From: a virus
Virus record (IMG/VR): IMGVR_UViG_3300021197_001481
Coordinates: 22,817-86,816 of that record
Length of the DNA stretch: 64,000 bases
Reading direction: 5' to 3' (one strand)
The position numbers were made by a program, and so were the translations under genes. Positions 2 through 64,000 of this stretch are shown one piece after another. How positions within the stretch are numbered: position 1 is the first letter of the stretch; each line of letters opens with the position of its first letter. Under the pieces are notes generated by a model, which was not told the origin of the DNA, made no database searches, and was given only the letters and a program-made list of their open reading frames with translations.

Positions 2-742
2 ATTGGTGATGGTGGTATCGATCCACAACCCGGACTATTATACACAGAATCATCCAGCGAATACGAATTCTCTGGTGGTGATGTAACTTATTCAATTCCA
101 TCATATGCAATTGGATCAACCGCAACAACAACATTAGAACAACTCGACGGCGGGACTTCGGATCTTTATTTTATACTAACTACAGGAAACTCATCAGATC
201 GGGCACAAATTGCTGAAGGTATTAGTATGGATACTGCGACCGGAAGAGTGGGGATCAAATTTGGTCTTGAACTAGGTCACGGAATTAGTTTCAGTGATGG
301 TAGTTTCCTCGGTAGCAAAAATGAACTTGTTACAAGTGTTAATGGATCGACTGGAGATGTTCTTACCATACCATCACAGGTTGCCCACTTCACAATCCAA
401 GCGTCATCTTCTATATCCACAGGTGCAAAGACATCAGCACTTCACAGAATACCATATAGTGCAAAAATTACTGAGGTTGGAATTCGTACAGGAAATACAG
501 GAGGAATCACTGCATCCTTTAGAAAAATACGAAATCAAGATATTTTTGACATGACTGAAGGAATAAGTTACTCGTCATTGATCGGAACCGTAAATGCCGC
601 AACAGCAGCATTTGGTGCAACCGCAACAATCAACTCAATTGATGGTCCCAACTATGTTTATATGAACATTGATGCCATCGCCTCTGGCATAACACTCGTC
701 CAAGGGTTTATGGAATACATTAGATTTGATGGGAGCGACTAA
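2..742 (+). CDS. C-terminal part of a tail fibre/virion protein (5'-truncated)
   Basis: Frame is open from position 2 to TAA at 740-742; contains GISFSDGS and VTSVNGSTGDV motifs resembling those in the fibre at the window end. Confidence 0.6.
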   Translation: MGDGGIDPQPGLLYTESSSEYEFSGGDVTYSIPSYAIGSTATTTLEQLDGGTSDLYFILTTGNSSDRAQIAEGISMDTATGRVGIKFGLELGHGISFSDGSFLGSKNELVTSVNGSTGDVLTIPSQVAHFTIQASSSISTGAKTSALHRIPYSAKITEVGIRTGNTGGITASFRKIRNQDIFDMTEGISYSSLIGTVNAATAAFGATATINSIDGPNYVYMNIDAIASGITLVQGFMEYIRFDGSD

Positions 743-1884
743 TGGCATTAACTGATTTTTTCTTATCACCAGATGGAGATGGATCGAAAGACGGTTCGGA
801 TATCGATAACGCATTCCAAGCGATTACCAGTGGAGATTGGACATCTAGTCTTGATTCACAGACATTGCAAGATCGAAGGTGGATATGGTTAGAGGGAACG
901 TACAACTGCACAACTCAACTTGTTACTTCGGGAACTGTTCCTACTGCTGCCGCACCAATGCAATGGGTGGGTGCTGATTCGTCTGGTAATATTCTTCGTC
1001 CAAAGTTTGATGAAACTGGTATGAGTCTAGATCTTACCAACTACCCAAAATTTGTTTGTAGTGCAGACGTAGAAATGATTTTCACCCATGAACATACTGC
1101 GTATAAGTGTTTATCTTTTGAAAACACAAGTGCATCTTTTAGTAAAAGTGGTATCATAGAAAATACCGCTGGTGATCTTGATGTTCAAAACTGGACTGGT
1201 TGTTTTTTCAAGACAGCATCAAACAGCACTGGTGTTGAGGTCTTAACAATGAGTAACTCAAACTTAAACATGTGTGAACTTGTAATGACAGGTGGAGGTT
1301 TTTCCTCTGTGGTGCGTATGCTTAGTGGTGGTGTTATGAACAACTGCCGTATAAAAGGTCCGGGTATTCTTTCTGGCGGTGGAAACTCTTGTGGAGTTCG
1401 GATAAACAGTGGTAGCGTCACAATCCTTGATACATTGATTTACAATATTCCGGGGGATGCTATTTTCCACGAAAGTACAAACGATAGACAGTCAATTTCA
1501 GTATCAGGTTGCTCTATTATAGATGTTGCTGGTGCCGGTATTGACACCAGCAGTTTAGACGGCACAAACATTGCATCAAGAGGATCGGTAATGGAGTGTT
1601 GTGTTATGTTTAATTGTGGAACAGGAATTGAAGCAGCAGCAGAAGATGGTAGGCAACCCGGCGCACAATTCCTTGCAATGGGAGAAAACACTGCTAACTT
1701 TAGCAACATGGATTCATACGAAGACATGATTGATGTGATTGCAATCACAACTGCCGATTTTGTTGATTATGCGAACGATGATTTTAGAATCAGAAGAGAC
1801 TCCGCGATCTATAAAATTCTAGGAGACAAAAACATGGGTGCGTTACAAAATGAAGATTATGAATTTGCGAGTGTGTCCTCATGA
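742..1884 (+). CDS. Right-handed beta-helix (pectin lyase-like) protein, possible tailspike/depolymerase
   Basis: N-terminal FLSPDGDGSKDGS, Asn/Cys-rich short beta repeats, C-terminal FVDYANDDFRIRRDSA...MGALQ typical of beta-helix proteins. Confidence 0.55.
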   Translation: MALTDFFLSPDGDGSKDGSDIDNAFQAITSGDWTSSLDSQTLQDRRWIWLEGTYNCTTQLVTSGTVPTAAAPMQWVGADSSGNILRPKFDETGMSLDLTNYPKFVCSADVEMIFTHEHTAYKCLSFENTSASFSKSGIIENTAGDLDVQNWTGCFFKTASNSTGVEVLTMSNSNLNMCELVMTGGGFSSVVRMLSGGVMNNCRIKGPGILSGGGNSCGVRINSGSVTILDTLIYNIPGDAIFHESTNDRQSISVSGCSIIDVAGAGIDTSSLDGTNIASRGSVMECCVMFNCGTGIEAAAEDGRQPGAQFLAMGENTANFSNMDSYEDMIDVIAITTADFVDYANDDFRIRRDSAIYKILGDKNMGALQNEDYEFASVSS

Positions 1885-5304: not shown

Positions 5305-7794
5305 GTGCCTTTAAAAATATTCGGTGGGTCACTTCTCCTACCACTAAAAATTGATGGATATACCTTCGATAAACTCCCATATGCTCCGGGAGTTGATGAA
5401 AGATTTTCCACACAATTAAAAGATCAACTGCCGGATTTCGTACTAGAAAATTACGAAACATTTGTTCAATTTGTAGAGGCATATTATGAATGGTCCGAAC
5501 AACACGGAAACCCAAGAGCAGAGGGTGTTCGATTAAACACATACAATGATATTGATGAAACTCTTGATTTATTTTTGGAGTATTTCAGAAATACTTACAT
5601 TAAAGATTTTCCATACAAACTAGCAGACGGAGCAAACGAAAAAACTCTAATCAAAAATGTTGGTGATATGTATCGGTCAAAGGGGTCTAAGGCATCCTTT
5701 GATTTGTTGTTCAGGGTTTTATTTGATACATCAATTGAAATTAATTATCCCAAAGACAGAATTCTTAAACTATCAACTGCCACATTTGATGACAAACAAT
5801 TCATAAGAGTTGCACCTCTCATTTCAATTGATGAAGCAAAGACATTAGAAAATAGTCTTCTTGTACAAAAATCTAAATTCAAGAAAGAGATAACTGCGAC
5901 AGCATTAATTGATCGTGTAGATTATGTTCATGAAGGTGGATTTGACTTTTTCTCTCTTGCCGTACAAGATATATCTGGTACGTTCAATAAAGATACTTTT
6001 GTTGATGTTGTTACATCTGGAACCACATCTGCTGCATATTCTTTACCTGTATTACCAACACTACATTCTCTGAAAATAAATTCTGGAGGAACTGGGTATC
6101 AACTAGGAGATGAAGTAGATGTTTATGACTCATATGGAAATAGATTATTAAACGCAGCAATAAACAACATAGGTCCAATTGGGGATATTCGTGGTTTTGA
6201 GTTCAAACAAAATTTTGGTGTTTATAGATCAGATCAATCTATTGGTTTTTCTTTCGATACCTTTAGCGGAACCGGAGCAAGTCTCTCAGCACTTGGCGAA
6301 CAAGTCCTAACTGATGGACCAGACACATACAAAGACGACACCGGAAAAATTAGTGGTCGTTCCTTTATTCAAGATAGTTTCTTTTATCAAAACTATTCTT
6401 ATATTATTCGAGTCAACAAAAGTCTAGAACAATTTGCAGATGCAGTTCGTCGCCTAGTTCATCCATCGGGAACATTGATGTTTGCAGAATACATCAATGA
6501 AGTTTCGATGTCTGGTGATGCTGGAATAACCACAGATAACCTAACAAGATTCGTTCCTGTCATCGGTCACTATCTTCCACACACATTTGGAACAACTATT
6601 GATCCCCGAGGGTTTACTCTAGATGCGGTTCACACTGATTTTTATCCACTTGGATACAACGGTCAAGACGGCAACACGTTGGGGGAATTTATCGGGATTA
6701 CATTAGCAGCAGGAATAACAGGAACTCCTCACCTTTTTCCACATCTTGGACTTACACACGACCCACTAACAGTTCATAGTAACACGACCAACACGCCTTA
6801 TACCCTCAAACCTTTTAATAATGTAGAAACCAGAAGGACTATTATAAATGGTGCGTTAGGATCTACTGGATATATTGGACTAACAAGTGACTCTATTGGA
6901 GAACACGCAGGACTCATGGGATTTTTCCCAACGGGTTCCAGTAGAATAAGCACCATCGGTCCGGTGGGGGTTTTTGGCAGTGGAATTACTCACTACGGTG
7001 GTTACACATCTCCACAAGAAACCAGTCTTTCTGGTGGATTCTCTGGTGGTCAAATTGTCCAAATCGTCGGGACCGACTCCGCAACAGCAGACTACTGGAT
7101 TGTGTATCGTCACCCTACTCACTTAGGACTAGAGGGATTGGGAACAACTGGTACAAGGGAAGTTGTTCGTATTCCAATGCAACCAGTACAAGCAGGCGGG
7201 CAGAACATAGCAACAATTGCACCAGATTCTAGCGGTTATAATTTTGAAGAAACAACTGGGATTACAATAAACGGAACACCATACAGTATTGGAGAAATAG
7301 TAACACAGACAAGACCAAGAGAACCAATTGCCATAGGAAGAGTGATTAAATTTGATCCATCTGCATTTGGTAATCAGGGATCTGTTGCAGACGGCATCGC
7401 ACCATCCGATCCACTGTATAATCTCGATATTGATATACTTGAAGTTGAGGTTTTAAATGGTAAGTTTACCACGGGACTCATATCAGGAGATCTCAATAAG
7501 GATGGCAAGGTCGATGGACTTGATCTTTCATTATTACTTTCTAATTTTGGTCTAACCGGTGAGGGAGATTTAAACGAAGATGGAATTGTTGATGGCGGAG
7601 ATCTCGCTGGTCTTCTCGCATCTTGGGATCAACTTCCGAAACCAATCATAGGTGAGACTTCTGGAGGATCTAGACTAGTTGATTCTTCGTTTAATAACAA
7701 CATATATACTAGTATAACTCACGATACAAGTTGGATGGATATACCAATCAGCGTTATGGTAAATGATATCCAGTATAGTAACTTAACAAACTGA
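5305..7794 (+). CDS. gp7: Baseplate wedge initiator gp7-like, with G-x-T-rich insert and dockerin-like repeat
   Basis: QLPDFV..YETFVQFVEAYYEW, YRSKGS..SFDLLFR, IQDSFFYQNYSY, LVHPSG motifs; GTG start with GGAG SD. Confidence 0.8.
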   Translation: MPLKIFGGSLLLPLKIDGYTFDKLPYAPGVDERFSTQLKDQLPDFVLENYETFVQFVEAYYEWSEQHGNPRAEGVRLNTYNDIDETLDLFLEYFRNTYIKDFPYKLADGANEKTLIKNVGDMYRSKGSKASFDLLFRVLFDTSIEINYPKDRILKLSTATFDDKQFIRVAPLISIDEAKTLENSLLVQKSKFKKEITATALIDRVDYVHEGGFDFFSLAVQDISGTFNKDTFVDVVTSGTTSAAYSLPVLPTLHSLKINSGGTGYQLGDEVDVYDSYGNRLLNAAINNIGPIGDIRGFEFKQNFGVYRSDQSIGFSFDTFSGTGASLSALGEQVLTDGPDTYKDDTGKISGRSFIQDSFFYQNYSYIIRVNKSLEQFADAVRRLVHPSGTLMFAEYINEVSMSGDAGITTDNLTRFVPVIGHYLPHTFGTTIDPRGFTLDAVHTDFYPLGYNGQDGNTLGEFIGITLAAGITGTPHLFPHLGLTHDPLTVHSNTTNTPYTLKPFNNVETRRTIINGALGSTGYIGLTSDSIGEHAGLMGFFPTGSSRISTIGPVGVFGSGITHYGGYTSPQETSLSGGFSGGQIVQIVGTDSATADYWIVYRHPTHLGLEGLGTTGTREVVRIPMQPVQAGGQNIATIAPDSSGYNFEETTGITINGTPYSIGEIVTQTRPREPIAIGRVIKFDPSAFGNQGSVADGIAPSDPLYNLDIDILEVEVLNGKFTTGLISGDLNKDGKVDGLDLSLLLSNFGLTGEGDLNEDGIVDGGDLAGLLASWDQLPKPIIGETSGGSRLVDSSFNNNIYTSITHDTSWMDIPISVMVNDIQYSNLTN

Positions 7795-52373: not shown

Positions 52374-52375
52374 TC

Positions 52376-55326: not shown

Positions 55327-55328
55327 TT

Positions 55329-56021
55329 ATGACTAAACATTTGTTATTATGTTTTAGTTCGTTTCATGTAGATACTGATCCGAACAATAAACGAGAAGAA
55401 GAGTATGCCATTTGTTATGAACAACTTCTTAGAGTTTTACCAAGTGATTTTAATTGTAGGTTTATTGATAATACCACAAACAATATATCTGATATAAAAA
55501 ACGAAAGACTAAAAAATGTTCTTGCAGGAACTCCATCAATCTTGTATGATAACAACGTAGGAAAAACAAACAAAGGATTGGGTGAATTGGACATGTTGGT
55601 CCGAGCAAAGAAACTTCTAGACTTTTTGGATTATAAAACAATTAGTTACCACTCTGGACGTAAGATTGTAACCTGTCCATATGTCTTTGACAAAACCAGA
55701 GAAACTAAAAAAGATGCTATGTTGTCTAACCCCCCGATATATTCTCTAATGACAGGAACACCATATCCGATGGGAAAAAATCTTTACAATGATATGTTCT
55801 TTTCAATGGGAAGTGAAGTGATGTTACAGTATTGCGTATACTGTGAGACTATTCTTAAGAATGGATCTTCTGGGTTAGGTTCTGAGCAAATTTTATACAA
55901 TTTTATTAATGAAAACCAAATTGACTTTGAGTGGATTGAACATCTAGGATTTATTAGAAATGACTGGGAACTCTCGGGCAATGGATACACAAGACAAGAA
56001 GGAAATGCCCAGTGGATATAA
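55329..56021 (+). CDS. Hypothetical protein in the glycan island
   Basis: 230-aa ORF; NKGLGE and SGR motifs, possibly glycosyltransferase-like. Confidence 0.5.
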   Translation: MTKHLLLCFSSFHVDTDPNNKREEEYAICYEQLLRVLPSDFNCRFIDNTTNNISDIKNERLKNVLAGTPSILYDNNVGKTNKGLGELDMLVRAKKLLDFLDYKTISYHSGRKIVTCPYVFDKTRETKKDAMLSNPPIYSLMTGTPYPMGKNLYNDMFFSMGSEVMLQYCVYCETILKNGSSGLGSEQILYNFINENQIDFEWIEHLGFIRNDWELSGNGYTRQEGNAQWI

Positions 56022-57112
56022 GAAATGAAGTTTTACCTGTCTTGCGACCTGTTGGTGGTGTCGAAGAAATAAATGCCTTATCCGATGTAATAAACAGTGG
56101 GTGGTGGGGTAAAGGTCCAAAGGTAACCGAGTTTGAAAAGAAGTTTGCAGAGATGGTTGGTGCAAAGTATGCAGTTGCTGTTAGTAGCAACACTCATGGA
56201 TTGGATTTGGTTTTAAAGGCCAAAGGTATTGAACATGATGACGTTATCAGTCCAACAATGTCTTTTGCTACAACCGCTATTGCTCCCTTGTGGAACAACT
56301 GTACGTCTACTATTGTGGATGTTGAAAGAGATACACTTTGTATTGATCCAAAATCAGTCAAAGAAAACCTGTCTCCAAATACAAAAGCAATCATTGCAGT
56401 AAACATGGCGGGAGTTCCTGCCAAGATTGATGAGATTAGAAATTTTTATGATGGATTTATCATTGAAGATTGTGCCCATAGTTGTTATACTTATGGTGCA
56501 GGTTCTAAAGGAGATGTTGCAATTTGGTCTTTTCAAGCAGTAAAAACTATGCCCTGTGGTGATGGGGGAATGATAACAACTAATGATAAAGAACTATATG
56601 AAAAACTAGTTCCTATGTCTTGGATGGGAATTTCCAGTACACACGAAAGAACAAAGGGTGTAGATGGTAAACCCGGATACTCTTGGGATTATGATATTAA
56701 ACTACTTGGAACCAAATCATATATGATTGATATATCGGCGGCAATTTGTTTGGAACAAATGAAGAAACTTCCAGATGCTTTGGAAAGAAGACGATACATA
56801 CAAAAAACATATAACGAACAACTAAATGAAATATTAGAAATTCCCGTTTGGTCTGAAACAGTTCAACACTATGGAGCAAGAGTACATCTAAAAGAACACA
56901 GAAATAAACTTATGGATTACTTAGCAGATAAAAAGATACACACATCGGTACACTACAAACCCCTTCATCTACACACTTTATTAAAGGATGGTAAGAAATT
57001 ACCGGTAGCAGAAGAAGAGTGGCAAAAACTTATATCTTTGCCTTGTCATTCTGCGATGACACAAGAAGACATTGATTATGTAATTTACTGGGTAAAGGAA
57101 TATTTTAAATGA
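56012..57112 (+). CDS. DegT/DnrJ-family NDP-sugar aminotransferase
   Basis: GPKV.EFE..FA, IEDCAHS, SFQAVKTMPCGDGGM with catalytic Lys, SLPCH. Confidence 0.9.
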   Translation: MDIRNEVLPVLRPVGGVEEINALSDVINSGWWGKGPKVTEFEKKFAEMVGAKYAVAVSSNTHGLDLVLKAKGIEHDDVISPTMSFATTAIAPLWNNCTSTIVDVERDTLCIDPKSVKENLSPNTKAIIAVNMAGVPAKIDEIRNFYDGFIIEDCAHSCYTYGAGSKGDVAIWSFQAVKTMPCGDGGMITTNDKELYEKLVPMSWMGISSTHERTKGVDGKPGYSWDYDIKLLGTKSYMIDISAAICLEQMKKLPDALERRRYIQKTYNEQLNEILEIPVWSETVQHYGARVHLKEHRNKLMDYLADKKIHTSVHYKPLHLHTLLKDGKKLPVAEEEWQKLISLPCHSAMTQEDIDYVIYWVKEYFK

Positions 57113-57159
57113 AAGAAAAAGTAAAAATTGATGATCGATACGTATGGAGTCCTAAGTGA
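57109..57159 (+). CDS. 16-codon mini-ORF (MKEKVKIDDRYVWSPK)
   Basis: ATGA overlap with the upstream stop, GTGA overlap with the downstream start, AAGGA upstream. Confidence 0.35.
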   Translation: MKEKVKIDDRYVWSPK

Positions 57160-58010
57160 ACACACTTTATACAATTGAAGGGACTAAAAACAATGACCAG
57201 AATCCAATCTATAACTCATTGGACCATCCAGACTTTCAAGATAAACTGTCACAGTTCAAAGAAACCTTAGTTTCTTGTTTTTCTAATAAACAATCTAAAA
57301 CTTTTTATAAGTTTGGGGACGGTGACTATTATTTTCTTCGGGGTGAGGGAATTGGTAGTGCAACACCCGGAAGAAGAGCATTATCAAAAAAATATTCTGA
57401 TATTAAACACGAAGAGTTTGTGTCAGGCGTTCCCCTGAATGACTATATCGGAGTTGAAACTTACAACATACCACTATTTTCAAGTCTTTATCCAGATAGA
57501 CCGGCAGACTATTATGCCGAATATGGATATGGGTTGACTGCAAATAAATGGTTGACTGCCACATTTGGAGAATCTATTGGTGTCATTGGAGCAGGTCCAA
57601 AGATTCGACTCATTGAGGAACTCATACAAAATAAAGAGTATCAAGAGTATCTTGGTCTAGAGAAGTTTACCGACTACATTGAGATACCACAAAAATTTGC
57701 ATGTGATGATATCGATGAAACGGAAAGAATGGTAGGGGAGCAGTTGAGTAACTCATCATCTAAAATTTTTCTACTAGGGATTGGGCATGTAAAATCCGCT
57801 TTGCTGCATCGGTTGAAGAAATATACAAATGCTATTTTCTTGGATGTCGGCAGTGGCATCGATGCTTTGGCAGGAATAATAGATCACAATCGTCCTTACA
57901 TGGCAAACTGGACAAACTACAGAACTACTAATTTTGACTACAGTTCCTTAGATATTTTACAGTATGATATATGGAACACCCCACACAAGATGTTAAAGGA
58001 AAAGGATTGA
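57156..58010 (+). CDS. Putative GT-D fold (DUF1792-like) glycosyltransferase
   Basis: FYKFGDGD resembles the RFGDGE motif; C-terminal LLGIG...AIFLDVGS resembles LxxLG...AIDIGH. Confidence 0.5.
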   Translation: MNTLYTIEGTKNNDQNPIYNSLDHPDFQDKLSQFKETLVSCFSNKQSKTFYKFGDGDYYFLRGEGIGSATPGRRALSKKYSDIKHEEFVSGVPLNDYIGVETYNIPLFSSLYPDRPADYYAEYGYGLTANKWLTATFGESIGVIGAGPKIRLIEELIQNKEYQEYLGLEKFTDYIEIPQKFACDDIDETERMVGEQLSNSSSKIFLLGIGHVKSALLHRLKKYTNAIFLDVGSGIDALAGIIDHNRPYMANWTNYRTTNFDYSSLDILQYDIWNTPHKMLKEKD

Positions 58011-58012
58011 AT

Positions 58013-58759
58013 ATGAAAAAGATGAAGGGTATTATTTTAGCGGGTGGATCGGGCAGTAGATTACATCCACTCACCGTCGCAGTAAACAAACACCTTTTAC
58101 CCGTTGGAGATAAACCAATGGTCATGCGTTGTTTGGAAAAGTTAACAGAAGCAGGAATTACAGAAATTGCGATCGTTACAAATCCAGAGTATGTTAGTAA
58201 CTTTTCTGCACTCTTAAAAAGTGGTAGTGACTATGGATGTGATATAACATACAAAGTTCAAGATAAAGCAGGAGGCATCGCAGAAGCACTGGAGTTGTGT
58301 GAGAACTTCGTAGGGGGTGACAATTGTACCGTCTTGTTGGGCGACAACATTTTTGAAGAATCACTTGTCGAGCATGTAGAAACCTTTAACAAAGATTGCA
58401 AATTGTTTTTTAAACATGTTCCTGATGGTCATCGTTATGGTGTTGCCTGTTTCGAGGAGGGCGTTGGACTATATGAAATCCTAGAAAAACCCTCCGACGC
58501 TACCTCTGCTTTTGCCGCAGTCGGCATTTATATTTACAGCAGTGAAGTTTTTGATCTGATTAAAAAAGTTAAACCATCATATAGAGGTGAACGTGAAATT
58601 ACTAGCGTTAATAACATGTTCCTCCACAGTAAGTATAAATACACATATGACTTCCTTGATGGGTGGTGGACCGATGCAGGTACAATGGAAACATACATCA
58701 GAGCAAACGAACTGGTTCGTGCGGGACAATATGAAAGATCCAAAGAAATTTCATCTTAA
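58013..58759 (+). CDS. rmlA: Glucose-1-phosphate thymidylyltransferase
   Basis: GIILAGGSGSRLHPLT..NKHLLPV.DKPM, LGDNIF, RGE.EIT, WTDAGT. Confidence 0.9.
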   Translation: MKKMKGIILAGGSGSRLHPLTVAVNKHLLPVGDKPMVMRCLEKLTEAGITEIAIVTNPEYVSNFSALLKSGSDYGCDITYKVQDKAGGIAEALELCENFVGGDNCTVLLGDNIFEESLVEHVETFNKDCKLFFKHVPDGHRYGVACFEEGVGLYEILEKPSDATSAFAAVGIYIYSSEVFDLIKKVKPSYRGEREITSVNNMFLHSKYKYTYDFLDGWWTDAGTMETYIRANELVRAGQYERSKEISS

Positions 58760-59210
58760 CATATACGAGGATGAACGCGGGGCATTTTCAGAAATTTTTC
58801 GTGCTACATCTCATGACGTAAATTTTGTGCAAGATAACCTTTCCGTTTCAAAGTCAGGTGTCTTGCGTGGTCTTCACCACCAAACAATAAAACCTCAAGG
58901 GAAACTTGTTGTTGTTTTGGATGGAAACATACAGGACGTAATAGTTTCATTAAAAACTAAAAGTGTTTTTTCGTATGACCTGAAAAGAGGAGATTGCCTT
59001 TGGGTTCCGCCAAACTATCTTCATGGGTTCTTGTGTTTGACAGATAGTATGGTCATGTACAAATGCACCAATTATTATGACTCAGGATCAGAGATCTCTG
59101 TTGACGCTTTCGATTCTCACCTAGATATAGAGTGGAAGATTGATCGGAAAAATATTATTCGTTCAGAAAAAGATTCTTCTGCTCTTTTATATGATGAGGT
59201 TATATCGTGA
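58731..59210 (+). CDS. rmlC: dTDP-4-dehydrorhamnose 3,5-epimerase
   Basis: DERG.F.E, FVQDN.S.S..GVLRGLH.Q, QGKLV, HGF, YKC..YY, SEKD. Confidence 0.92.
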   Translation: MKDPKKFHLNIYEDERGAFSEIFRATSHDVNFVQDNLSVSKSGVLRGLHHQTIKPQGKLVVVLDGNIQDVIVSLKTKSVFSYDLKRGDCLWVPPNYLHGFLCLTDSMVMYKCTNYYDSGSEISVDAFDSHLDIEWKIDRKNIIRSEKDSSALLYDEVIS

Positions 59211-60139
59211 AAACAATAATGGTTACTGGATGTGCAGGATTTATCGGAGGACATGTGACAGAACGTCTACTGTCTGATGGGTATGATATACTCGGTGTTG
59301 ATTGTCTAACATATGCAGGAAACATGGACTTGATGGATAGACTACAAAACAATCACAAATTACATTTTACCTTCAACCAAAAAAGAATTGGTGAACTAAG
59401 TTCGTCTGATTTAGAACATGTAGACCTTGTGGTAAACCTTGCAGCAGAAACACATGTGGACAACTCAATAAAAAGTAGTGATCCTTTTGTGCAAACAAAT
59501 ATAGTGGAAACACACCATCTATTAGAAAAGTGTAGAGAAAGTAATACTCCACTATTACATTTTTCTACCGACGAGGTATATGGTGTAGTTTTAGATGGTT
59601 CATTCTGTGAAACAGATCCACTGAAACCCAAGAATCCATATTCAGCAACGAAAGCAGCGATTGATCATCTTATTACATCATATCAAAACACATATGGATT
59701 ACAATCAACTATCATAAGACCGTCAAATAACTTTGGTCCAAGGCAGAACGATGAAAAGTTCATACCAACAATTACAAGATCAATCAGGAATCAAAATAAA
59801 ATACCTGTGTATGGAGAAGGACAGCAAGTTAGAGAGTGGACATACGTCAAACATACTGCCGCCGCCGTATCATTTCTCTGTAATAAGTTATTACAGGGAG
59901 AATGCTTTGGAGAAATTTTTAACTTTGGTACATCAGTTGAAATGAAAAATGTTGACTTGGTTAAAAAGTTGTGTAAAATAATAGGAGTTAGTTTTGAAGA
60001 CTCCGTTGAGTTTGTGACCGACCGCCCCGGTCATGATTTCAGATACAGTGTGAACTGTAAAAAGATCTCGAATCTAGGGTTTATTGTCGAACCCAACATA
60101 AATAAAGAATTAGAAGAAACATTAGAGGAATTGAAATGA
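59207..60139 (+). CDS. rmlB: dTDP-glucose 4,6-dehydratase
   Basis: VTGCAGFIG, LTYAGN, AAETHVDNSI, STDEVYG, PYSATKA, DRPGHDFRY. Confidence 0.93.
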   Translation: MKTIMVTGCAGFIGGHVTERLLSDGYDILGVDCLTYAGNMDLMDRLQNNHKLHFTFNQKRIGELSSSDLEHVDLVVNLAAETHVDNSIKSSDPFVQTNIVETHHLLEKCRESNTPLLHFSTDEVYGVVLDGSFCETDPLKPKNPYSATKAAIDHLITSYQNTYGLQSTIIRPSNNFGPRQNDEKFIPTITRSIRNQNKIPVYGEGQQVREWTYVKHTAAAVSFLCNKLLQGECFGEIFNFGTSVEMKNVDLVKKLCKIIGVSFEDSVEFVTDRPGHDFRYSVNCKKISNLGFIVEPNINKELEETLEELK

Positions 60140-61518
60140 GCAGACCCACCGTTACACTATGCATGATCGTTAAAGATGAAGAACATATTATTCATGAGTG
60201 TTTGGATTCGATGAAACCATACGTTGATCGATATGATATCACCGACACGGGTTCGACCGATAGAACCAAAGAAATTATTAAAGAGTGGGGAGAAAAGAAT
60301 AACATTCCCGGAACTGTCTACGACGCTCCTTGGCGTGGGTTTGGTAAGTCTCGTACAGAATCTCTGAGAAACGCAGACAAGGGTGGTGCAGACTACTCTT
60401 GGGTAATTGATGCTGATGATAAAGTCGGAGGAAACTTTGTTTACCCTCCCCAGTTTGGGCAACACTGTGGGTATACTCTTAAGATTAATAGAGGAGACTT
60501 TGAGTGGTGGAGAAATCAAATCTTCAAGAACAATATGGGGTGGGAGTATGTTGGTGTAATTCACGAATATGCAAACTGCCCTAAACTTGAAGAAGAAGCA
60601 GCAGCAGGTCGAGGAACCGCCAGACTTGCAGGAGATTACTTCATCGATGCCCGAACAATGGGTAATAGAACAAAAGAATTTGATGTTCAATTAAAAGAGG
60701 GCGAGCAAGAAACTCCGGGACAAGAGCAGTGGAGAAAGAAGTATCTTGCAGATGCAGAAACTATTCTTGATTGTTTGACAAATCCCGAGAATGAAAACTA
60801 CGAACCAGATAATCTTAGATATTACTTCTACCTTGCACAATCATACTTTGACGGTGGTGACTTCAAGAGTGCGAAAGAGTGGTACGAGAAGCGAGCAGAG
60901 AAGGGTGGATGGGAAGAGGAGCAGTGGTACTCTGTTCTTCGTGTCGCAATGTGTATGACCAATATGGGTGAGAAGTGGCAAGACTCACAAGATGTATTCT
61001 TACAGGCATACAATCTTAGACATACCCGAGTAGAACCTTTATTCAATCTTGCCAGAATTCATCGATTAAATGGAAATCCTAAACTGGGATATCTTTTTGC
61101 TAAGATGGGATGTCAGATAACGCTTCCACCACAAGATGTTCTTTTTGTGGCAAAAGATGTATATGAATGGCAAATCTTCGATGAACTTGCATCCACTGCA
61201 TGGTATACCGGAGATATGCAAGCAGGTCTCCTAGCATCTAATAAACTTCTTAGCGAAAAGAAGTATCCAGAAGAACACCATGAACGTATTCTAAACAACT
61301 GGAAGCAGTATGTTGCTTGGCAAGAAGAGCAAGAAAAGCAACAAAAGGCAGCAGAAGCAGAACATACCAAGCAAAGAATCTTACATGAAGAAGCACAGCG
61401 TCAAGAAACAGAGAAAAGAAAACTCGAAACTAAGAATCGGGAACAACAAAAGAAGATAAATAAGAGGAGACAGAAGCAAAAAAATGCGAGCAAGTCTCGT
61501 AAAGCATCGAGGAGATGA
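60136..61518 (+). CDS. GT2 glycosyltransferase with TPR domain (protein O-glycosyltransferase type)
   Basis: LCMIVKDE, DTGSTD.T, W.GFG..R...L, IDADD, G.IHE, followed by TPR helices (YYFYLAQSYFD...A..WY) and a coiled-coil/basic tail. Confidence 0.88.
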   Translation: MSRPTVTLCMIVKDEEHIIHECLDSMKPYVDRYDITDTGSTDRTKEIIKEWGEKNNIPGTVYDAPWRGFGKSRTESLRNADKGGADYSWVIDADDKVGGNFVYPPQFGQHCGYTLKINRGDFEWWRNQIFKNNMGWEYVGVIHEYANCPKLEEEAAAGRGTARLAGDYFIDARTMGNRTKEFDVQLKEGEQETPGQEQWRKKYLADAETILDCLTNPENENYEPDNLRYYFYLAQSYFDGGDFKSAKEWYEKRAEKGGWEEEQWYSVLRVAMCMTNMGEKWQDSQDVFLQAYNLRHTRVEPLFNLARIHRLNGNPKLGYLFAKMGCQITLPPQDVLFVAKDVYEWQIFDELASTAWYTGDMQAGLLASNKLLSEKKYPEEHHERILNNWKQYVAWQEEQEKQQKAAEAEHTKQRILHEEAQRQETEKRKLETKNREQQKKINKRRQKQKNASKSRKASRR

Positions 61519-61521
61519 TAC

Positions 61522-61959
61522 ATGGCATCCGGTAGATATGACATAACCGCAGAACAAGGAGTTACTTTCAAACTCCACCTTCGTTATAGTGATTCTAATG
61601 ACACTTTTATCGATTTAGATCCTGACTTGGGGTGGACAGGAAGACTTCAGGTTCGTCGTTCCCCTGACGATCCGGATATTTTATTGCATGTTACAACCAA
61701 TGGTGTAACTGGTGGTGGAGTAACAGGGGAATTTGTTTCTGGTGCAGGAGTTGTCGGTTCTGGTGGTATCACCATGAACGCATCTGCCACGGGCGGCACT
61801 GGTTTAAGTGGAGGCGTTTTGATTGGTATTGATGCATCTAGCATGTCTAACGTCCCCAAAGGGAATCACTTCTATGATCTAGAAATTGTCAAAGATGGCA
61901 CTATTGTGACAAGACTTCTCAATGGTAGATTCAGTGTCGATAGGGAAATCACTAGATGA
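61522..61959 (+). CDS. Virion structural protein (BppU/baseplate-upper-like Ig fold)
   Basis: YDI..EQG.TF, LQVR, YDLEI......TRLL.G.F.V..EIT pattern with a Gly/Thr-rich insert. Confidence 0.6.
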   Translation: MASGRYDITAEQGVTFKLHLRYSDSNDTFIDLDPDLGWTGRLQVRRSPDDPDILLHVTTNGVTGGGVTGEFVSGAGVVGSGGITMNASATGGTGLSGGVLIGIDASSMSNVPKGNHFYDLEIVKDGTIVTRLLNGRFSVDREITR

Positions 61960-64000
61960 GTAACAAAATTACTATTACGGCGTTACCCGGTAACGTAACA
62001 CTTACCGATTCTGGCGTAAAGACCAACGTGATTCAAGTCGCACAGGGTGTCGTCGCCGGTGGTGGTGTTGGTCAGGATGGTTCACAAGGAGATCACGGTA
62101 CAACCGGAAACACAGGTGCAACTGGTGCAACTGGTGCTACTGGAAACACAGGTGCAACTGGTAACACTGGTAATGATGGTGGCAATACATTTGGTATTCC
62201 GGGTGGTTTTGGTTTCTTTACACGCTTCGATGGAACAACTGGAACAACTTTACCAGTCCCAGAGGGTAGTAATAATTATCCGGGAGCGTTTAAGTTTGCT
62301 TTTGGTCATGGATCAGGAACAGCAGGAACAGGAGATGTTCCGAATTGGCCGGACTCAGGTGCTTTTTACCCGCAAGAACTTTACATAAGTGAATATAGTT
62401 ATAATGGTGTGAAGGGTTCTCATATTCCCAACCTCATTACACTCTTGATGGGTGCATCCGGAGGGACTATCCAGTGGGGCAGTGCCGGTCAACAAGCAAC
62501 TGCTGTTGCAATTTGCAAACTGACACAAATGCTGCCATATGCTCGCGGAGAGGATTCGCCCTCAGCAAATAGAACTCCTGTTGAAGCATGGTTCATGGTG
62601 AAACCCGGATTAGATTATGCCAGTCAAGGTGCGGATGGAAGTGGGAATCATACAATTCCTATTCAGAGAATTGATGAAGCAGGTACTAGACCAGTATTCC
62701 CATATAATGATTCTGGTAGATCCGGTGGAACAGGACCAGTCCAAGATGGAGATGTATTCTATCTTAGTTTCCAACCAATCTTCGGTGTAGGGGGAGGCGG
62801 CAGCGAGAGTTCGGGTGGAGGCACTGCATATCAAGCAGGAGATGGACTCACGCTAGATGTTGCTGGTGGAACCTTTGGTATTGATCCAACTGCAATCATT
62901 AATGTCGCTGGTGTAACTGGTAATGATTCTGCGATGGAATTCAGAAAGATCTCTGCATTCCCGTCCGACCTCACCGAACTTGCGTTAGTAGTCGATGGTG
63001 ATGACAAGTTGCGGATTCGTGATAATAAGTACCAGATAGATACCAAAGTCATCATCGACAACGGACTTCTCGAAGTCAAGGGCGGTGCGAGTATAACCGG
63101 TGGATTACTTCTTCAGGGATCATCCCCCGGATTAACTGTACAATCTTCTAATATCTTTGAAACAGTTCTTCATGCCAACGCAGGAATTTCTACTGATAAG
63201 GGAATTACTTTCTCTGATGGAACTCATCAGTTGACTGCTCCCGCTACAGTATCGCCTGCATTCCTTTCTGGCGGCGAAGGCGTAACTGGTATAACTCAAT
63301 ATAGAGCAACCGGTGGTGTTGTTCTAGACAACGCTGGCGGAACATTCTCACTCGATGGTGAGTATGATGCTAACTTTACATCATTAACAACTACTTTAAC
63401 AGTGAAATCCAACTCAGTCCTTGCTGCTGCCGGTGGTATCTCTGCGGACAAGGGAATTACCTTCCCCGATGGTACTCATCAGACGACTGCTCCAAACGTG
63501 GTTAGTCCAGCAGGAGCAGGAAACTTTTCTGCTACCGTCCCGTACACATATACTGCTCCTACGACCACTCAAATTGCTAATGCAGATGGTGCATTTATAT
63601 ACAATAGTAATAATGTTCTATCGATATTCAAGCAAGGCAGTAATGGTAGTAGTGAAGATCTTTCTGCGACGTTTCAGGATATTGTAGATACAGGTTCAAG
63701 TGGAAAAATTGGTATACGATTTGGTGCCTCAAACGAAGAACGGTTTTTCTTTTTCTCTGGTGGGAATCCGACCTTCGCCTCGAATAGATTTAATTTCACT
63801 GCCACGGATCAGGTTCCGGGTTCTACTCTTGGGGATGGTAAGGCAGTTGAGTTGCGAGTTTATGTTGATAACCCAACAACAGCAGCAACCACTCACTTCC
63901 GCTTCCCAGACGGAACAAATGCTACCAGTATTGTTACAAGTTTCAATGGTACTACTGGTGCCGTCGAAGGTGTGGCAAGTGTAAACGGTGCGACTGGTGC
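61956..64000 (+). CDS. Collagen-like tail fibre protein (3'-truncated)
   Basis: ATGA-coupled start MSNKITIT...; G-X-Y repeat, GITF.DGT repeats and VTSFNGTTGAV/VASVNGATGA at the window end are in the same frame; missing from the ORF track, consistent with no stop in the window. Confidence 0.8.
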   Translation, partial: MSNKITITALPGNVTLTDSGVKTNVIQVAQGVVAGGGVGQDGSQGDHGTTGNTGATGATGATGNTGATGNTGNDGGNTFGIPGGFGFFTRFDGTTGTTLPVPEGSNNYPGAFKFAFGHGSGTAGTGDVPNWPDSGAFYPQELYISEYSYNGVKGSHIPNLITLLMGASGGTIQWGSAGQQATAVAICKLTQMLPYARGEDSPSANRTPVEAWFMVKPGLDYASQGADGSGNHTIPIQRIDEAGTRPVFPYNDSGRSGGTGPVQDGDVFYLSFQPIFGVGGGGSESSGGGTAYQAGDGLTLDVAGGTFGIDPTAIINVAGVTGNDSAMEFRKISAFPSDLTELALVVDGDDKLRIRDNKYQIDTKVIIDNGLLEVKGGASITGGLLLQGSSPGLTVQSSNIFETVLHANAGISTDKGITFSDGTHQLTAPATVSPAFLSGGEGVTGITQYRATGGVVLDNAGGTFSLDGEYDANFTSLTTTLTVKSNSVLAAAGGISADKGITFPDGTHQTTAPNVVSPAGAGNFSATVPYTYTAPTTTQIANADGAFIYNSNNVLSIFKQGSNGSSEDLSATFQDIVDTGSSGKIGIRFGASNEERFFFFSGGNPTFASNRFNFTATDQVPGSTLGDGKAVELRVYVDNPTTAATTHFRFPDGTNATSIVTSFNGTTGAVEGVASVNGATG
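62070..62177 (+). repeat. Collagen-like repeat, 12 Gly-X-Y triplets, 8 of them with Thr at Y
   Basis: GQD GSQ GDH GTT GNT GAT GAT GAT GNT GAT GNT GND; 9-nt ggtgcaact-type units. Confidence 0.9.
63172..63495 (+). repeat. Duplicated ~24-aa module in the fibre
   Basis: AGISTDKGITFSDGTHQLTAP (~63180-63243) and GGISADKGITFPDGTHQTTAP (~63432-63495). Confidence 0.75.

What the first reader, a model, noticed from the sequence alone, without database searches (positions are those of the whole stretch)
2..64000. Candidate virion-wide O-glycosylation system: G-x-T sequon in structural proteins plus GT2-TPR initiator and glycan island
Seen: G-[A/V/I/L/M/F]-T recurs densely across unrelated virion proteins. 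Hand counts give 9 in the 597-aa fibre, 7 in gp18 (six in one insert), 4 in the gp14 insert, 4 in the last ~60 aa of gp15, 4 in the 145-aa ORF at 61522, 4 in the 354-aa ORF, about 9 in the gp7 C-terminal half and 3 in the first ORF, plus the GAT collagen triplets. I found essentially none in UvsW, gp46, gp17 or portal. The GT2-TPR gene directly abuts the G-x-T-rich structural genes and ends a ~13-kb glycan island. Known: GT2-TPR enzymes such as Clostridioides difficile SgtA are required for glycosylation of collagen-like BclA3, and Bacillus BclA G-X-T collagen repeats are O-glycosylated. Inference: the phage has spread a collagen-derived G-x-T acceptor motif into surface loops across its tail, neck and baseplate to build a glycan coat with its own enzymes, for shielding, host recognition or stability.
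Basis: partly seen in the sequence, partly recalled or inferred. Interest (0 to 1): 0.9.

Follow-up and report, generated by a model that had tools for sequence, protein, structure and literature searches.

The report
Phage Gly-x-Thr motif and glycosylation island
An uncultured marine T4-like phage carries a swappable block of sugar-building genes ending in an enzyme of the kind that attaches sugars to proteins, directly beside threonine-rich collagen-like fibres, and the motif Gly-hydrophobic-Thr is about twice as frequent as chance in its outer tail, neck and baseplate proteins, so the particle is probably sugar-coated, though no chemistry has been done.

Summary
Observation confirmed. All hand counts reproduce exactly. 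G-[AVILMF]-T occurs 66 times in structural proteins against 29.7 expected from composition. It is the top X-h-Y class (Z 6.65; next 3.04). The reverse T-h-G is 0.94x. Non-structural proteins have 9 against 10.4 expected. Local shuffles, dipeptide correction and codon usage do not explain it.

The enrichment is specific to this lineage. It is absent from T4, Syn1, HTVC008M and a complete IMG/VR genome, all lacking the enzyme, and weak in S-SKS1. It persists at 2.4-2.8x through the clade.

The GT2-TPR gene is real. Its nearest solved relatives are peptide or protein glycosyltransferases: GmaR, SunS and ThuS. It always closes a variable, entirely soluble glycan island. In 11 of 15 related loci it precedes a G-X-Thr collagen-like protein. 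In reverse, 30 of 118 viral loci picked only for GAT-GAT-GNT-GAT carry such an enzyme, against 0 of 61 comparison loci.

Fibre glycosylation is well supported. Glycosylation at the dispersed motifs is plausible but unproven. "Virion-wide" overstates it: capsid, portal and tube have none. This scan noted the same theme earlier on other genomes.

The parts
48048..61518 (+). Glycan island of 16 tightly packed genes: GT25-like, two GT11, GDP-fucose-synthase-like SDR, two DegT-type aminotransferases, GT6, GT10-like, RmlA, RmlC-like, RmlB, four unnamed ORFs and the terminal GT2-TPR
   Evidence: Pfam; NCBIfam. No 19-residue window reaches Kyte-Doolittle 1.6 in any of the 16 proteins, so no flippase, polymerase or ligase is encoded. 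In L001 the interior is replaced while the flanks stay at 87-90% identity.
60136..61518 (+). GT2-TPR glycosyltransferase, 460 aa: N-terminal GT-A domain, helical (TPR-like) repeats at about 197-374, then a long C-terminal helix
   Evidence: PF00535 scores 38.2 bits against a cut-off of 23.3; TPR models fall below cut-off. The only PDB sequence hit is GmaR, E 1.4e-11. D92, A93, D94 and D95 are invariant in 33 homologues. The AF2 model has pLDDT 88.7. Foldseek's best matches are ThuS and SunS over the full length, and the OGT TPR domain.
61522..61959 (+). 145-aa protein with 4 G-h-T in a Gly-rich central stretch; probably a small fibre adaptor
   Evidence: 4 observed against 0.72 expected. Homologues follow the GT2-TPR directly in 7 of 16 loci and lie two genes further on in 2. 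The Atlas places it among viral clusters, with LtfC and BppU_N as leads only. No PHROG or Pfam hit.
61956..63998 (+). Collagen-like fibre protein, over 681 aa, cut by the window end: 14 uninterrupted G-X-Y triplets, 8 of them G-X-T in one run, then a globular part with a twice-repeated GITF-x-DGTHQ-x-TAP motif
   Evidence: Sequence; triplet runs; 12 G-h-T against 4.2 expected. The Pfam Collagen model scores below cut-off (16.4 against 27.2 bits).
2..742 (+). C-terminal 246 aa of a 1030-aa protein that starts upstream of the window and carries three G-X-T collagen runs. Its homologues directly follow the GT2-TPR in L007, L008 and L015
   Evidence: The full protein has 12 G-h-T against 6.1 expected.
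5305..7794 (+). gp7-like baseplate wedge protein; 9 G-h-T, all at residues 407-749
   Evidence: PHROG; 9 against 2.74 expected, p 0.002; positions.
15478..17271 (+). 597-aa fibre-like protein; 9 G-h-T
   Evidence: 9 against 2.75 expected. Motif threonines are 84% conserved in the clade against 40% for other threonines.
17279..18343 (+). 354-aa protein of the fibre/neck block; 4 G-h-T
   Evidence: 4 against 1.76 expected. Motif threonines 80% conserved against 38%.
19629..20483 (+). gp14 neck protein; 4 G-h-T at residues 169-248
   Evidence: PHROG; 4 against 0.87 expected. Three of the four motifs lie beyond residue 185, in the part that does not align with T4 gp14. The clade alignment shows both conserved and shifting sites.
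20483..21334 (+). gp15 tail sheath stabiliser; 4 G-h-T in the last 56 residues
   Evidence: PHROG; 4 against 0.74 expected. The tail beyond residue 219 does not align with T4 or Syn1.
23466..25838 (+). gp18 tail sheath, 790 aa; 7 G-h-T, all within residues 95-482, the stretch that replaces T4 residues 94-358
   Evidence: PHROG; 7 against 2.36 expected; BLAST against T4 and Syn1.
41804..42811 (+). UDP-glucose 4-epimerase GalE, outside the island
   Evidence: TIGR01179 scores 340.7 bits against a cut-off of 262.3.
49510..49538 (+). Sigma-70-like promoter (TTGACA, 17 nt, TG-n-TATACT) in the only intergenic gap between annotated island genes
   Evidence: This is a consensus match only; the region as a whole has no more matches than shuffles.

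Best explanation
The window encodes a phage-borne system for O-glycosylating its own virion proteins in the host cytoplasm.

Proposed mechanism:
- Soluble enzymes of the island make activated sugars: dTDP-6-deoxy and amino sugars via RmlA, RmlB, an RmlC-like enzyme and two aminotransferases; fucose via a GDP-fucose-synthase-like enzyme; UDP-Gal via GalE.
- The conserved last gene of the island is a GT2-TPR enzyme of the SgtA, GmaR and SunS type. It uses its helical-repeat domain to hold protein substrates and puts the first sugar on Thr of Gly-X-Thr.
- The variable GT25, GT11, GT6 and GT10-like enzymes then extend the chain.

Acceptors:
- The primary acceptors are the G-X-Thr collagen-like fibres: the gene two ORFs downstream, apparently in one operon, and the 1030-aa protein at the window start.
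- The Gly-[I/A/V/L]-Thr motifs in lineage-specific segments of gp7, gp14, gp15, gp18 and the other fibres are probably further acceptor sites.

Shown: gene identities, architecture, synteny, motif statistics and lineage specificity. Inferred: every enzymatic step, the acceptor residues and the biological role (shielding, stability or host recognition). My odds are about 0.6 for fibre glycosylation and about 0.3 for modification of the dispersed motifs.
For: 1. Enzyme type. GT2 passes its Pfam threshold. The only PDB sequence match is the flagellin O-GlcNAc transferase GmaR (E 1.4e-11), with the DxD region aligned. The AF2 model (pLDDT 88.7) matches the glycocin peptide S-glycosyltransferases ThuS and SunS over about 420 alignment columns (E 3e-13) and the OGT TPR domain.

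2. Published analogue. SgtA has a GT-A domain (residues 1-260) plus four TPRs, adds beta-O-GlcNAc to Thr of the GPT collagen repeats of BclA3, and lies immediately upstream of bclA3 (PMC7157674, passages read).

3. Synteny. RmlB, GT2-TPR, the 145-aa ORF and the collagen ORF are joined by a 4-nt overlap, a 3-nt gap and a 4-nt overlap. In 16 of 16 IMG/VR loci the enzyme is present. In 11 of the 15 with downstream DNA, a collagen-like protein with mostly Y=Thr lies within two genes. The other 4 have a fibre-like protein with G-h-T at 2-3x.

4. Independent lineages. In cultured Tunturiibacter phage Tunturi_5 the homologue (32.6% identity) lies 3.7 kb from a 1469-aa tail fibre with 79 G-x-T, 40 G-h-T (10.1 expected) and 8 collagen runs. 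Of 118 IMG/VR loci picked only by a pattern encoding GAT-GAT-GNT-GAT, 30 hold a match to the GT2-TPR profile. Of these, 27 reach into the TPR part and 20 lie within 100 nt on the same strand as the collagen ORF; they fall into 15 clusters at 70% identity. Among 61 comparison loci there are 0 matches (Fisher p 1e-6).

5. Motif. See the observation check. Controls without the enzyme by profile search, with positive controls: T4 22 against 20.5 expected, Syn1 49 against 46.1, HTVC008M 37 against 42.4, complete genome G001 4 against 4.6, S-SKS1 15 against 9.9. Clade relatives: 2.8x in 12 loci, 2.4x in 6 and 2.5x in 36.

6. Selection on the motif. Motif threonines are conserved 65% against 40% for other threonines of the same proteins; Ser is the commonest replacement, and Val or Ile are not among the nine commonest residues. 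There are many lineage-specific sites at a maintained density, for example 44 motif columns in 17 gp18 sequences.

7. Location. Motifs lie in segments that do not align with T4 or Syn1. BLAST finds no domain shared between the motif-rich segments.

8. The island has no predicted membrane protein. Its interior is swapped in a relative whose gp15 is 97% identical.
Against: - There is no chemical evidence of any kind.
- Surface exposure is untested. The gp18 model had pLDDT 44.5 and the tool returns no coordinates.
- The enrichment traces to one clade, so the contrast with enzyme-free phages is in effect one evolutionary event.
- In other viral lineages, loci with a GT2-TPR beside a G-X-T collagen show non-collagen G-h-T at 1.25x against 1.19x in loci without one. 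The dispersed motif is therefore not a general companion of the enzyme.
- S-SKS1, which lacks the enzyme, shows a weak excess (1.5x, Z 1.6).
- MCP, portal, tube, gp13 and gp25 carry no motif.
- Gly, then a buried hydrophobic residue, then an exposed Thr is also a natural start of a beta-strand. The higher Thr conservation could be structural.
- gp18 motif threonines are not more conserved than other threonines (0.40 against 0.48).
- A sigma-70-like promoter inside the island would fit early expression. That fits host remodelling at least as well.
- The Pfam TPR and Collagen hits are below their cut-offs.
- Direct homology to SgtA itself was not tested.
Confidence: 0.55

Rival explanations
1. 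The GT2-TPR glycosylates only the collagen-like fibres, or nothing in the virion. The dispersed G-[IAVL]-T is a structural signature of the beta-rich decoration segments and fibres that this clade acquired: a Gly turn, a buried hydrophobic residue, then an exposed Thr at the start of a strand. It is not an acceptor site. This rival overlaps the core of the best explanation and disputes only its extension.
For: - The hydrophobic middle residue, the depletion of Pro and Phe in the middle position, and the flanking F/G/D preferences fit beta-strand starts.
- In the poor gp18 model, the motif at 216 lies in a predicted strand (212-218) and those at 251, 325 and 333 lie within four residues of a strand end.
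- Several sites are positionally conserved across the clade.
- Other viral lineages with a GT2-TPR plus collagen module show no extra dispersed motif.
- S-SKS1, without the enzyme, shows 1.5x.
Against: - T4, Syn1 and HTVC008M fibres and sheaths are just as beta-rich yet show 0.87-1.07x, with G-h-T ranking 93rd to 147th of the X-h-Y classes.
- BLAST detects no shared domain among the motif-rich segments.
- Site turnover is heavy while density is maintained.
- When a motif Thr is replaced, Ser is the commonest replacement; Val and Ile are not among the nine commonest residues.
- The same tripeptide frame, G-X-T, is what the neighbouring enzyme family is known to modify.
Confidence: 0.35
2. The island remodels host surface glycans (LPS O-chain, capsule or S-layer) during infection, for example to block superinfection. 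This is the published proposal for the 'LPS' gene clusters of P-SSM2 and the pelagimyophages. On this reading the neighbourhood with fibre genes reflects a shared hypervariable host-recognition region, and the motif is unrelated.
For: - This is the published reading for marine T4-like phages (PMC7029224 and PMC1079782, passages read).
- GT11, GT6, GT10, GT25, Rml and DegT families are typical of O-antigen clusters.
- A sigma-70-like promoter lies inside the island.
- Cassette swapping resembles O-antigen diversification.
Against: - The island encodes no initiating polyprenyl-phosphate transferase, flippase, polymerase or ligase, and no protein with a predicted membrane segment. Host enzymes could supply these.
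- The one conserved gene of the island is of a type whose nearest solved relatives act on peptides or proteins.
- That gene is packed in an apparent operon with fibre genes, and its pairing with G-X-T collagens recurs across unrelated viruses.
- This reading does not explain the motif enrichment.
Confidence: 0.2
3. The island glycosylates phage DNA (hypermodified bases) to evade restriction.
For: Phage glycosyltransferases often modify DNA; this was seen as statements in papers found. The window also encodes a Dam methylase.
Against: - Seven glycosyltransferase-family genes (one of them scoring below its Pfam cut-off) plus amino-deoxy-sugar pathways far exceed known DNA systems (my own knowledge).
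- The GT2-TPR resembles peptide or protein glycosyltransferases.
- No hydroxymethylase was seen among the window's annotated genes. The contig is incomplete, so this is weak evidence.
Confidence: 0.03

Closest known systems
Clostridioides difficile SgtA with its substrate BclA3 (PMC7157674)
   Same: Both have an N-terminal GT-A domain and C-terminal TPRs. Both genes lie next to a collagen-like protein whose triplets are Gly-X-Thr. In SgtA the Thr of those triplets is the demonstrated acceptor.
   Different: - The phage enzyme is 460 aa with an extra long C-terminal helix; SgtA is 358 aa.
- The triplets here are GAT, GNT and GTT with no Pro, not GPT.
- A small adaptor gene sits between enzyme and fibre.
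- A 13-kb variable glycan island lies upstream.
- The donor sugar is unknown.
- Sequence homology to SgtA itself was not tested here.
- The dispersed G-h-T motif in non-collagen proteins has no counterpart in what I read.
Listeria monocytogenes GmaR, flagellin O-GlcNAc transferase (PDB 22ao; PMC9638930)
   Same: GmaR is the only solved-structure sequence match: E 1.4e-11 over residues 3-97, with the DxD region aligned. It has a GT domain followed by TPRs and glycosylates a cytoplasmic structural protein before assembly.
   Different: GmaR has 637 residues, including an anti-repressor domain. Its substrate is flagellin. No collagen or G-X-T context is described in the passages read.
SunS and ThuS glycocin S-glycosyltransferases (PDB 7msn, 7msk)
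   Same: These are the best full-length structural matches of the model (E 3e-13, about 420 alignment columns). Both are GT-A plus helical-repeat enzymes that glycosylate peptides.
   Different: Identity is only 13-15%, and the rmsd is high when both domains are superposed. By the entry titles they are S-glycosyltransferases; that their targets are small secreted bacteriocin peptides is my recollection.
Mycobacteriophage virion glycosylation (Freeman et al. 2023; seen only as cited in PMC12619734)
   Same: Phage-encoded glycosyltransferases decorate virion proteins, and the glycans act as a shield.
   Different: There the glycans sit on the C-termini of the capsid and tail tube subunits. Here the MCP and tube have no motif. 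The enzyme type and any sequon there were not examined by me; the paper itself was not read.
'LPS' or glycosyltransferase islands of P-SSM2 and pelagimyophages (PMC1079782, PMC7029224)
   Same: These are marine T4-like phages with variable clusters of sugar genes close to tail-fibre genes and collagen-like ORFs.
   Different: Those islands are interpreted as host O-chain modification. Neither the tblastn search of 50,697 phage records, which include P-SSM2, nor the profile search of HTVC008M found a GT2-TPR homologue. HTVC008M shows no motif enrichment.

Membership tests
Glycosyltransferase family 2 (GT-A fold) | Match to PF00535 above Pfam's gathering score | tested here: met
   38.2 bits against a cut-off of 23.3, residues 8-97.
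Glycosyltransferase family 2 (GT-A fold) | DxD metal and nucleotide-sugar binding motif | tested here: met
   D92, A93, D94 and D95 are invariant in 33 homologues. They align with the IDADE stretch of GmaR.
SgtA/GmaR-type GT2-TPR protein O-glycosyltransferase | TPR or helical-repeat domain C-terminal to the GT domain | tested here: met
   Pfam TPR models fall below cut-off (TPR_2 23.8 against 27). The AF2 model (pLDDT 88.7) shows paired helices at 197-374. These match the OGT TPR domain 1w3b_A (E 1.7e-6) and designed consensus TPR proteins. This rests on a model, not on a solved structure.
SgtA/GmaR-type GT2-TPR protein O-glycosyltransferase | Gene adjacent to the gene of its Gly-X-Thr collagen-like substrate | tested here: met
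   In the window one 145-aa ORF lies between them. 11 of 15 related loci meet the feature. In 20 of 118 independently chosen viral loci the two genes lie within 100 nt on the same strand.
SgtA/GmaR-type GT2-TPR protein O-glycosyltransferase | Sequence homology to SgtA itself | not tested
Only GmaR was matched, through the PDB.
SgtA/GmaR-type GT2-TPR protein O-glycosyltransferase | Transfers a sugar to Ser or Thr of a protein | not testable with these tools
   Needs an enzyme assay or glycoproteomics.
Collagen-like (triple-helix) protein | Uninterrupted Gly-X-Y repeats | tested here: inconclusive
   The 681-aa ORF has 14 uninterrupted triplets, 8 of them G-X-T in one run, and the 1030-aa protein has three runs. 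The Pfam Collagen model scores 16.4 bits against a cut-off of 27.2. The runs are short and Pro-free.
O-glycosylation sequon (G-h-T as acceptor motif) | Enrichment in candidate substrates after composition correction | tested here: met
   66 observed against 29.7 expected. It is the top X-h-Y class. Of 500 local shuffles, 0 reach the observed count. The Markov-1 expectation is 34.2.
O-glycosylation sequon (G-h-T as acceptor motif) | Acceptor residues exposed on the protein or virion surface | tested here: inconclusive
   Motifs lie in segments that do not align with T4 or Syn1. The gp18 model is unusable (pLDDT 44.5) and no accessibility could be computed.
O-glycosylation sequon (G-h-T as acceptor motif) | Motif density co-varies with presence of the enzyme across lineages | tested here: inconclusive
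   Four enzyme-free genomes show no enrichment and a fifth (S-SKS1) is weak at 1.5x, while the clade shows 2.4-2.8x. That is one origin only. Other lineages with the enzyme show 1.25x against 1.19x without it.
Mycobacteriophage-type virion glycosylation | Glycans on C-terminal extensions of the capsid and tail tube subunits | tested here: not met
   MCP has 0 motifs against 1.3 expected and the tube 0 against 0.3. The defining feature comes from a citing paper only.
O-antigen / LPS biosynthesis cluster (rival reading) | Membrane components: initiating polyprenyl-phosphate transferase, Wzx, Wzy or ABC transporter, ligase | tested here: not met
   No island protein has a 19-residue window with mean Kyte-Doolittle hydropathy of 1.6 or more. 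The list of defining components is from my own knowledge.

The most novel reading that the evidence does not exclude
A whole clade of uncultured marine T4-like phages uses Gly-[I/A/V/L]-Thr as a portable O-glycosylation sequon. It would be written into lineage-specific outer loops of sheath, neck, baseplate and fibre proteins and read by a conserved GT2-TPR initiator. The swappable island behind the initiator would give each strain a different glycan 'serotype' on the particle itself. If so, many 'LPS' auxiliary gene islands of marine myoviruses would be virion-coat genes rather than host-remodelling genes.
Probability: 0.3. Interest if true: 0.85.

Novelty: new variant of a known kind. Interest (0 to 1): 0.68.

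Why it matters
Sugar-gene islands of marine T4-like phages have been read as host LPS modification (PMC1079782, PMC7029224). If they coat the particle instead, that changes how these abundant genes are counted as auxiliary metabolic genes. It would also add a glycan layer to models of phage adsorption, decay, grazing and antigenic diversity.

A three-residue sequon would let glycosylated virion proteins be predicted from sequence. The pairing of a GT2-TPR with a G-X-Thr collagen across many viral contigs suggests that glycosylated viral collagens are common but unstudied. Tunturiibacter phage Tunturi_5 is cultured and carries the pair, so the fibre part is directly testable.

My four searches on phages and virion or collagen glycosylation found no paper describing this for T4-like or marine phages. 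The library is incomplete and supplements were closed.

Tried and rejected
- **Nucleotide search.** Megablast of two 25-kb pieces against 50,697 phage records gave no match. Only distant blastn and tblastn placed the phage: about 65% nucleotide identity to cyanomyoviruses, and MCP 52.8% identical to HTVC008M.
- **DNA-level cause.** Rejected, because codons in the motifs are spread over synonymous codons.
- **Local composition.** Rejected by block shuffles.
- **Dipeptide bias.** Rejected.
- **Shared mobile domain.** All-against-all BLAST of the structural proteins found nothing linking the motif-rich segments. Profile-level similarity was not tested.
- **Generic property of T4-like structural proteins.** Rejected by T4, Syn1 and HTVC008M.
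- **gp18 structure.** The model reached only pLDDT 44.5 with 15 sequences and was not used beyond noting secondary structure. Both fold jobs are spent, so gp14 and the 145-aa protein were not modelled.
- **First search for the enzyme in five viral records.** It returned nothing and had no positive control. I repeated it with the profile and positive controls. Four of those five records are fragments and say nothing about absence.
- **Late promoter.** TATAAATA occurs once, inside a gene. TAAATA lies 35-37 nt upstream of the first island gene and of the GT2-TPR (4 of 17 plus-strand copies lie 10-60 nt upstream of a start, 0.9 expected). The classical late genes instead have CCTACATA or TAGATAA upstream. 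The timing of island expression remains open.
- **Generalising the dispersed motif.** No difference in other lineages.
- **Complex prediction.** Not used; enzyme-substrate pairs are a poor use of it.
- **Supplementary files.** Not consulted. Those of PMC7029224 and PMC7157674 could bear on gene lists and peptide sequences.

Full report
**What the window is.** The window is the last 64 kb of an 86.8-kb viral contig. All genes lie on the + strand.

PHROG, Pfam and NCBIfam scans show a T4-like myovirus. The order of genes is:
- baseplate: PAAR, gp25, gp6, gp7, gp8 and a 1903-aa protein;
- two unnamed fibre-block proteins of 597 and 354 aa;
- neck and tail: gp13, gp14, gp15, terminase, sheath and tube;
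- head: portal, protease, scaffold and MCP;
- replication and repair genes: UvsY, UvsW, gp47, gp46, Dam, DenV, GalE, RNase H, gp45, gp44, gp62 and RegA;
- a 13.5-kb island at 48048-61518;
- a 145-aa ORF and a collagen-like ORF that is cut by the window end.

The phage is uncultured. Megablast finds nothing. The sheath and terminase DNA is about 65% identical to cyanomyoviruses. The MCP is 52.8% identical to pelagiphage HTVC008M and about 51-52% to cyanophages.

Against the per-protein composition expectation:
- structural proteins have 62 against 28.6, or 66 against 29.7 with four probable structural ORFs;
- non-structural proteins have 9 against 10.4.

Among all X-hydrophobic-Y classes with expectation of at least 5, G-h-T ranks first (Z 6.65; the next is 3.04). 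The reverse T-h-G is 0.94x and G-h-S is 1.24x. Shuffling within blocks of 10 to 80 residues never reaches 66 (0 of 500 each). A first-order Markov expectation is 34.2, and the dipeptides G-h and h-T are not enriched. Gly and Thr codons within the motifs are spread over synonymous codons, so this is not a DNA motif.

The middle residue is I (3.65x), A (2.69x), V (2.42x) or L (1.82x). F and P are depleted.

The motif is not virion-wide. MCP, portal, tube, gp13 and gp25 have none, and gp8 and the 1903-aa protein are at or below expectation.

**Is it generic?** No. Profile searches with positive controls show that T4, Syn1, S-SKS1, HTVC008M and a complete 168.8-kb IMG/VR genome (G001) lack a GT2-TPR homologue.

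Their structural proteins give:
- T4: 22 against 20.5;
- Syn1: 49 against 46.1;
- HTVC008M: 37 against 42.4;
- G001: 4 against 4.6, from six proteins only;
- S-SKS1: 15 against 9.9, a partial region, Z 1.6.

G-h-T ranks 103rd, 93rd and 147th in T4, Syn1 and HTVC008M, and 11th of 116 in S-SKS1.

In 54 IMG/VR loci of the window's clade, fetched through gp15, the proteins homologous to the window's structural proteins keep the excess. The ratio is 2.8x in 12 loci with gp15 at 80% identity or more, 2.4x in 6 loci at 60-80%, and 2.5x in 36 loci at 45-60%. These loci are related, so this is a clade trait and not 54 independent observations.

**Selection on the motif.** In clade alignments filtered to below 90% identity, threonines of the window's motifs are conserved 65%, against 40% for the other threonines of the same proteins. 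The contrast is strongest in the 597-aa fibre (84% against 40%) and the 354-aa protein (80% against 38%). It is absent in gp18 (40% against 48%). The commonest replacement is Ser; Val and Ile are not among the nine commonest residues at these columns.

There are many lineage-specific sites at a maintained density:
- gp14: 12 motif columns in 22 sequences, mean 3.1 per sequence;
- gp18: 44 columns in 17 sequences, mean 4.8 per sequence.

Alignment uncertainty in variable inserts inflates the column counts.

The motifs sit where the proteins differ from T4 and Syn1:
- all seven gp18 motifs lie in residues 95-482, which replace T4 residues 94-358;
- the gp15 motifs lie beyond residue 219;
- three of the four gp14 motifs lie beyond residue 185.

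That the T4 region in question forms the exposed sheath domains is my recollection, not a tool result. BLAST finds no similarity between the motif-rich segments.

**The enzyme.** The 460-aa product of 60136-61518 passes Pfam's GT2 threshold. TPR models fall just below theirs. Its only sequence match among solved structures is GmaR, the Listeria flagellin O-GlcNAc transferase (E 1.4e-11), with the DxD stretch aligned. GmaR is a GT domain followed by TPRs (PMC9638930, passages).

An AF2 model from 33 sequences (pLDDT 88.7) shows a GT-A domain, paired helices at 197-374 and a long terminal helix. Foldseek's best matches are the glycocin peptide S-glycosyltransferases ThuS and SunS over the whole length (E 3e-13). 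The OGT TPR domain and teichoic-acid and other GT-A enzymes follow.

The family is large: 2045 proteins at E of 1e-5 or better, mostly from marine metagenomes. It is nearly absent from cultured phages: 10 of 50,697 records match, and none is a cyanophage or pelagiphage.

**The neighbourhood.** RmlB, the GT2-TPR, the 145-aa ORF and the collagen-like ORF are joined by a 4-nt overlap, a 3-nt gap and a 4-nt overlap. They look like one transcription unit.

In all 16 IMG/VR loci found with the enzyme (25-90% identity), it follows sugar genes. In 11 of the 15 loci with downstream DNA, a collagen-like protein with mostly Thr at Y lies within the next two genes. The other four (enzyme 42-47% identical) have a fibre-like protein with G-h-T at 2-3x.

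L001 lies on the same contig as L019, whose gp15 is 97% identical to the window's. In L001 the flanking GT25 (87%) and GT2-TPR (90%) are conserved, but the eight ORFs between them either match window proteins at only 27-37% or not at all. The island is therefore a swappable cassette with a fixed last gene.

In three loci the enzyme instead directly precedes homologues of the window's first ORF. Read from the contig, that ORF is a 1030-aa protein with three G-X-T collagen runs.

None of the 16 island proteins has a predicted membrane segment.

**Independent lineages.** In cultured Tunturiibacter phage Tunturi_5 the homologue (32.6% identity) lies 3.7 kb from a 1469-aa tail fibre with 8 collagen runs, 79 G-x-T and 40 G-h-T (10.1 expected).

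The results were:
- 118 new loci (1.06 Mb) were returned, and 117 have an ORF with at least four G-x-T in a row.
- 30 loci hold a match to a profile of the enzyme, and 27 of those reach into the TPR part.
- 20 matches lie within 100 nt on the same strand as the collagen ORF.
- The matches form 15 clusters at 70% identity. Most are about 355 aa, the size of SgtA.
- One match belongs to the window's clade.

The same profile hits 0 of 61 comparison loci (777 kb). This excludes the Tunturi_5 locus, which was fetched for its enzyme. All 16 positive-control loci were hit (Fisher p 1e-6). The comparison loci are T4-like structural regions, not a random sample.

This mirrors the published pair. SgtA has a GT-A domain plus four TPRs, is encoded immediately upstream of bclA3, and adds beta-O-GlcNAc to Thr of the GPT repeats of BclA3 (PMC7157674, passages).

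**What does not fit.** In those 118 loci, with collagen runs masked, G-h-T is 1.25x where the enzyme is present and 1.19x where it is not. The dispersed motif is therefore a feature of the window's clade and not a general companion of the enzyme. The loci are short and not limited to structural genes, and absence from a locus is not absence from a genome.

My gp18 model was too poor to use (pLDDT 44.5), so exposure is untested. A good sigma-70-like promoter sits in the only intergenic gap between annotated island genes (49510-49538). TAAATA lies 35-37 nt upstream of the first island gene and of the GT2-TPR. The classical late genes carry other upstream motifs, so expression timing is open.

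**Reading.** The best-supported part is that this enzyme glycosylates the phage's own G-X-Thr collagen-like fibres, with the variable island supplying and extending the glycan in the cytoplasm. I put this at about 0.6.

That the dispersed G-[IAVL]-T sites are further acceptors is a reasonable extension, given lineage specificity, directionality, conserved Thr, site turnover and location in added segments. It rests on one clade and no chemistry. I put it at about 0.3.

The rivals are:
- a purely structural motif;
- host surface remodelling, the published reading for related islands (PMC7029224, PMC1079782);
- DNA modification.

**Novelty and context.** Virion glycosylation by phage enzymes is known in mycobacteriophages; I saw this only as cited. 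The SgtA-BclA3 pair is known in bacteria. My four searches on phages and virion or collagen glycosylation found no description of a GT2-TPR plus G-X-Thr fibre module, or of a G-h-T sequon, in T4-like or marine phages.

Earlier notes of this scan report the same theme on at least 33 other genomes, including similar motif excesses. I treat these as leads, not as evidence.

Noticed in passing
48048-55326: The island combines two GT11 (alpha-1,2-fucosyltransferase family), a GT6 (ABO family) and a GT10-like domain, with a GDP-fucose-synthase-like SDR and GalE nearby. This set recalls histo-blood-group or Lewis-type glycan synthesis.
   Followed up: partly
49510-49538 and 36902-36957: Two near-consensus sigma-70-type promoters lie in intergenic gaps: TTGACA, 17 nt, TATACT with an extended -10 TG inside the island, and TTTACA...TATACT upstream of the 184-aa ORF. 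They suggest host-RNAP (early) transcription entering the island.
   Followed up: partly
18355, 25844, 32478, 38210, 47587 (+ strand): CCTACATA occurs 5 times, all on the + strand (1.4 expected; 3 of 100 shuffles reach 5). Three copies lie in the gaps just upstream of gp13, gp19 and the gp3-like gene, and one lies 40 nt upstream of regA. It is a candidate late-promoter variant. TATAAATA occurs only once, inside a gene.
   Followed up: partly
48012 and 60098: CTAAATA lies 36 nt upstream of the first island gene and ATAAATA 38 nt upstream of the GT2-TPR. Of 17 plus-strand TAAATA copies, 4 lie 10-60 nt upstream of a start codon (0.9 expected).
   Followed up: partly
32416-32490: A GC-rich hairpin (CAGGGAGAGG...CCTCTCCCTG) followed by TTTCTTT lies directly after the major capsid gene. 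It looks like an intrinsic terminator.
   Followed up: no
61956-63998; also the window's first ORF, L002, L011, L015: A fibre motif recurs: G-I-S-x-D-x-G-I-T-F-[SP]-D-G-T-x-Q-x-T-A. It occurs twice in the collagen-like ORF and is shared with fibre proteins downstream of the GT2-TPR in relatives.
   Followed up: no
46615-47244: An FkbM-family methyltransferase gene is inserted between the clamp-loader genes gp44 and gp62. In relative L001 it is replaced by a 24%-identical version plus an extra ORF.
   Followed up: no
58587-59210: The RmlC-like ORF as called overlaps RmlA by 173 nt, and its family match starts at residue 49. The true start is probably later.
   Followed up: no
contig upstream of the window (G000:C1 5780-6316 +, 9821-10648 -, 17323-18213 +): Three further unnamed proteins upstream of the window also show G-h-T excess: 4 against 0.6, 6 against 1.5 and 3 against 0.4. 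The 757-aa and 755-aa proteins there do not. None was annotated by me.
   Followed up: no
L142 866-6517 (-): In one IMG/VR contig the GT2-TPR-like region is the N-terminal part of a 1884-aa open frame next to a G-X-T collagen ORF. It may be a fused multi-domain glycosylation enzyme.
   Followed up: no
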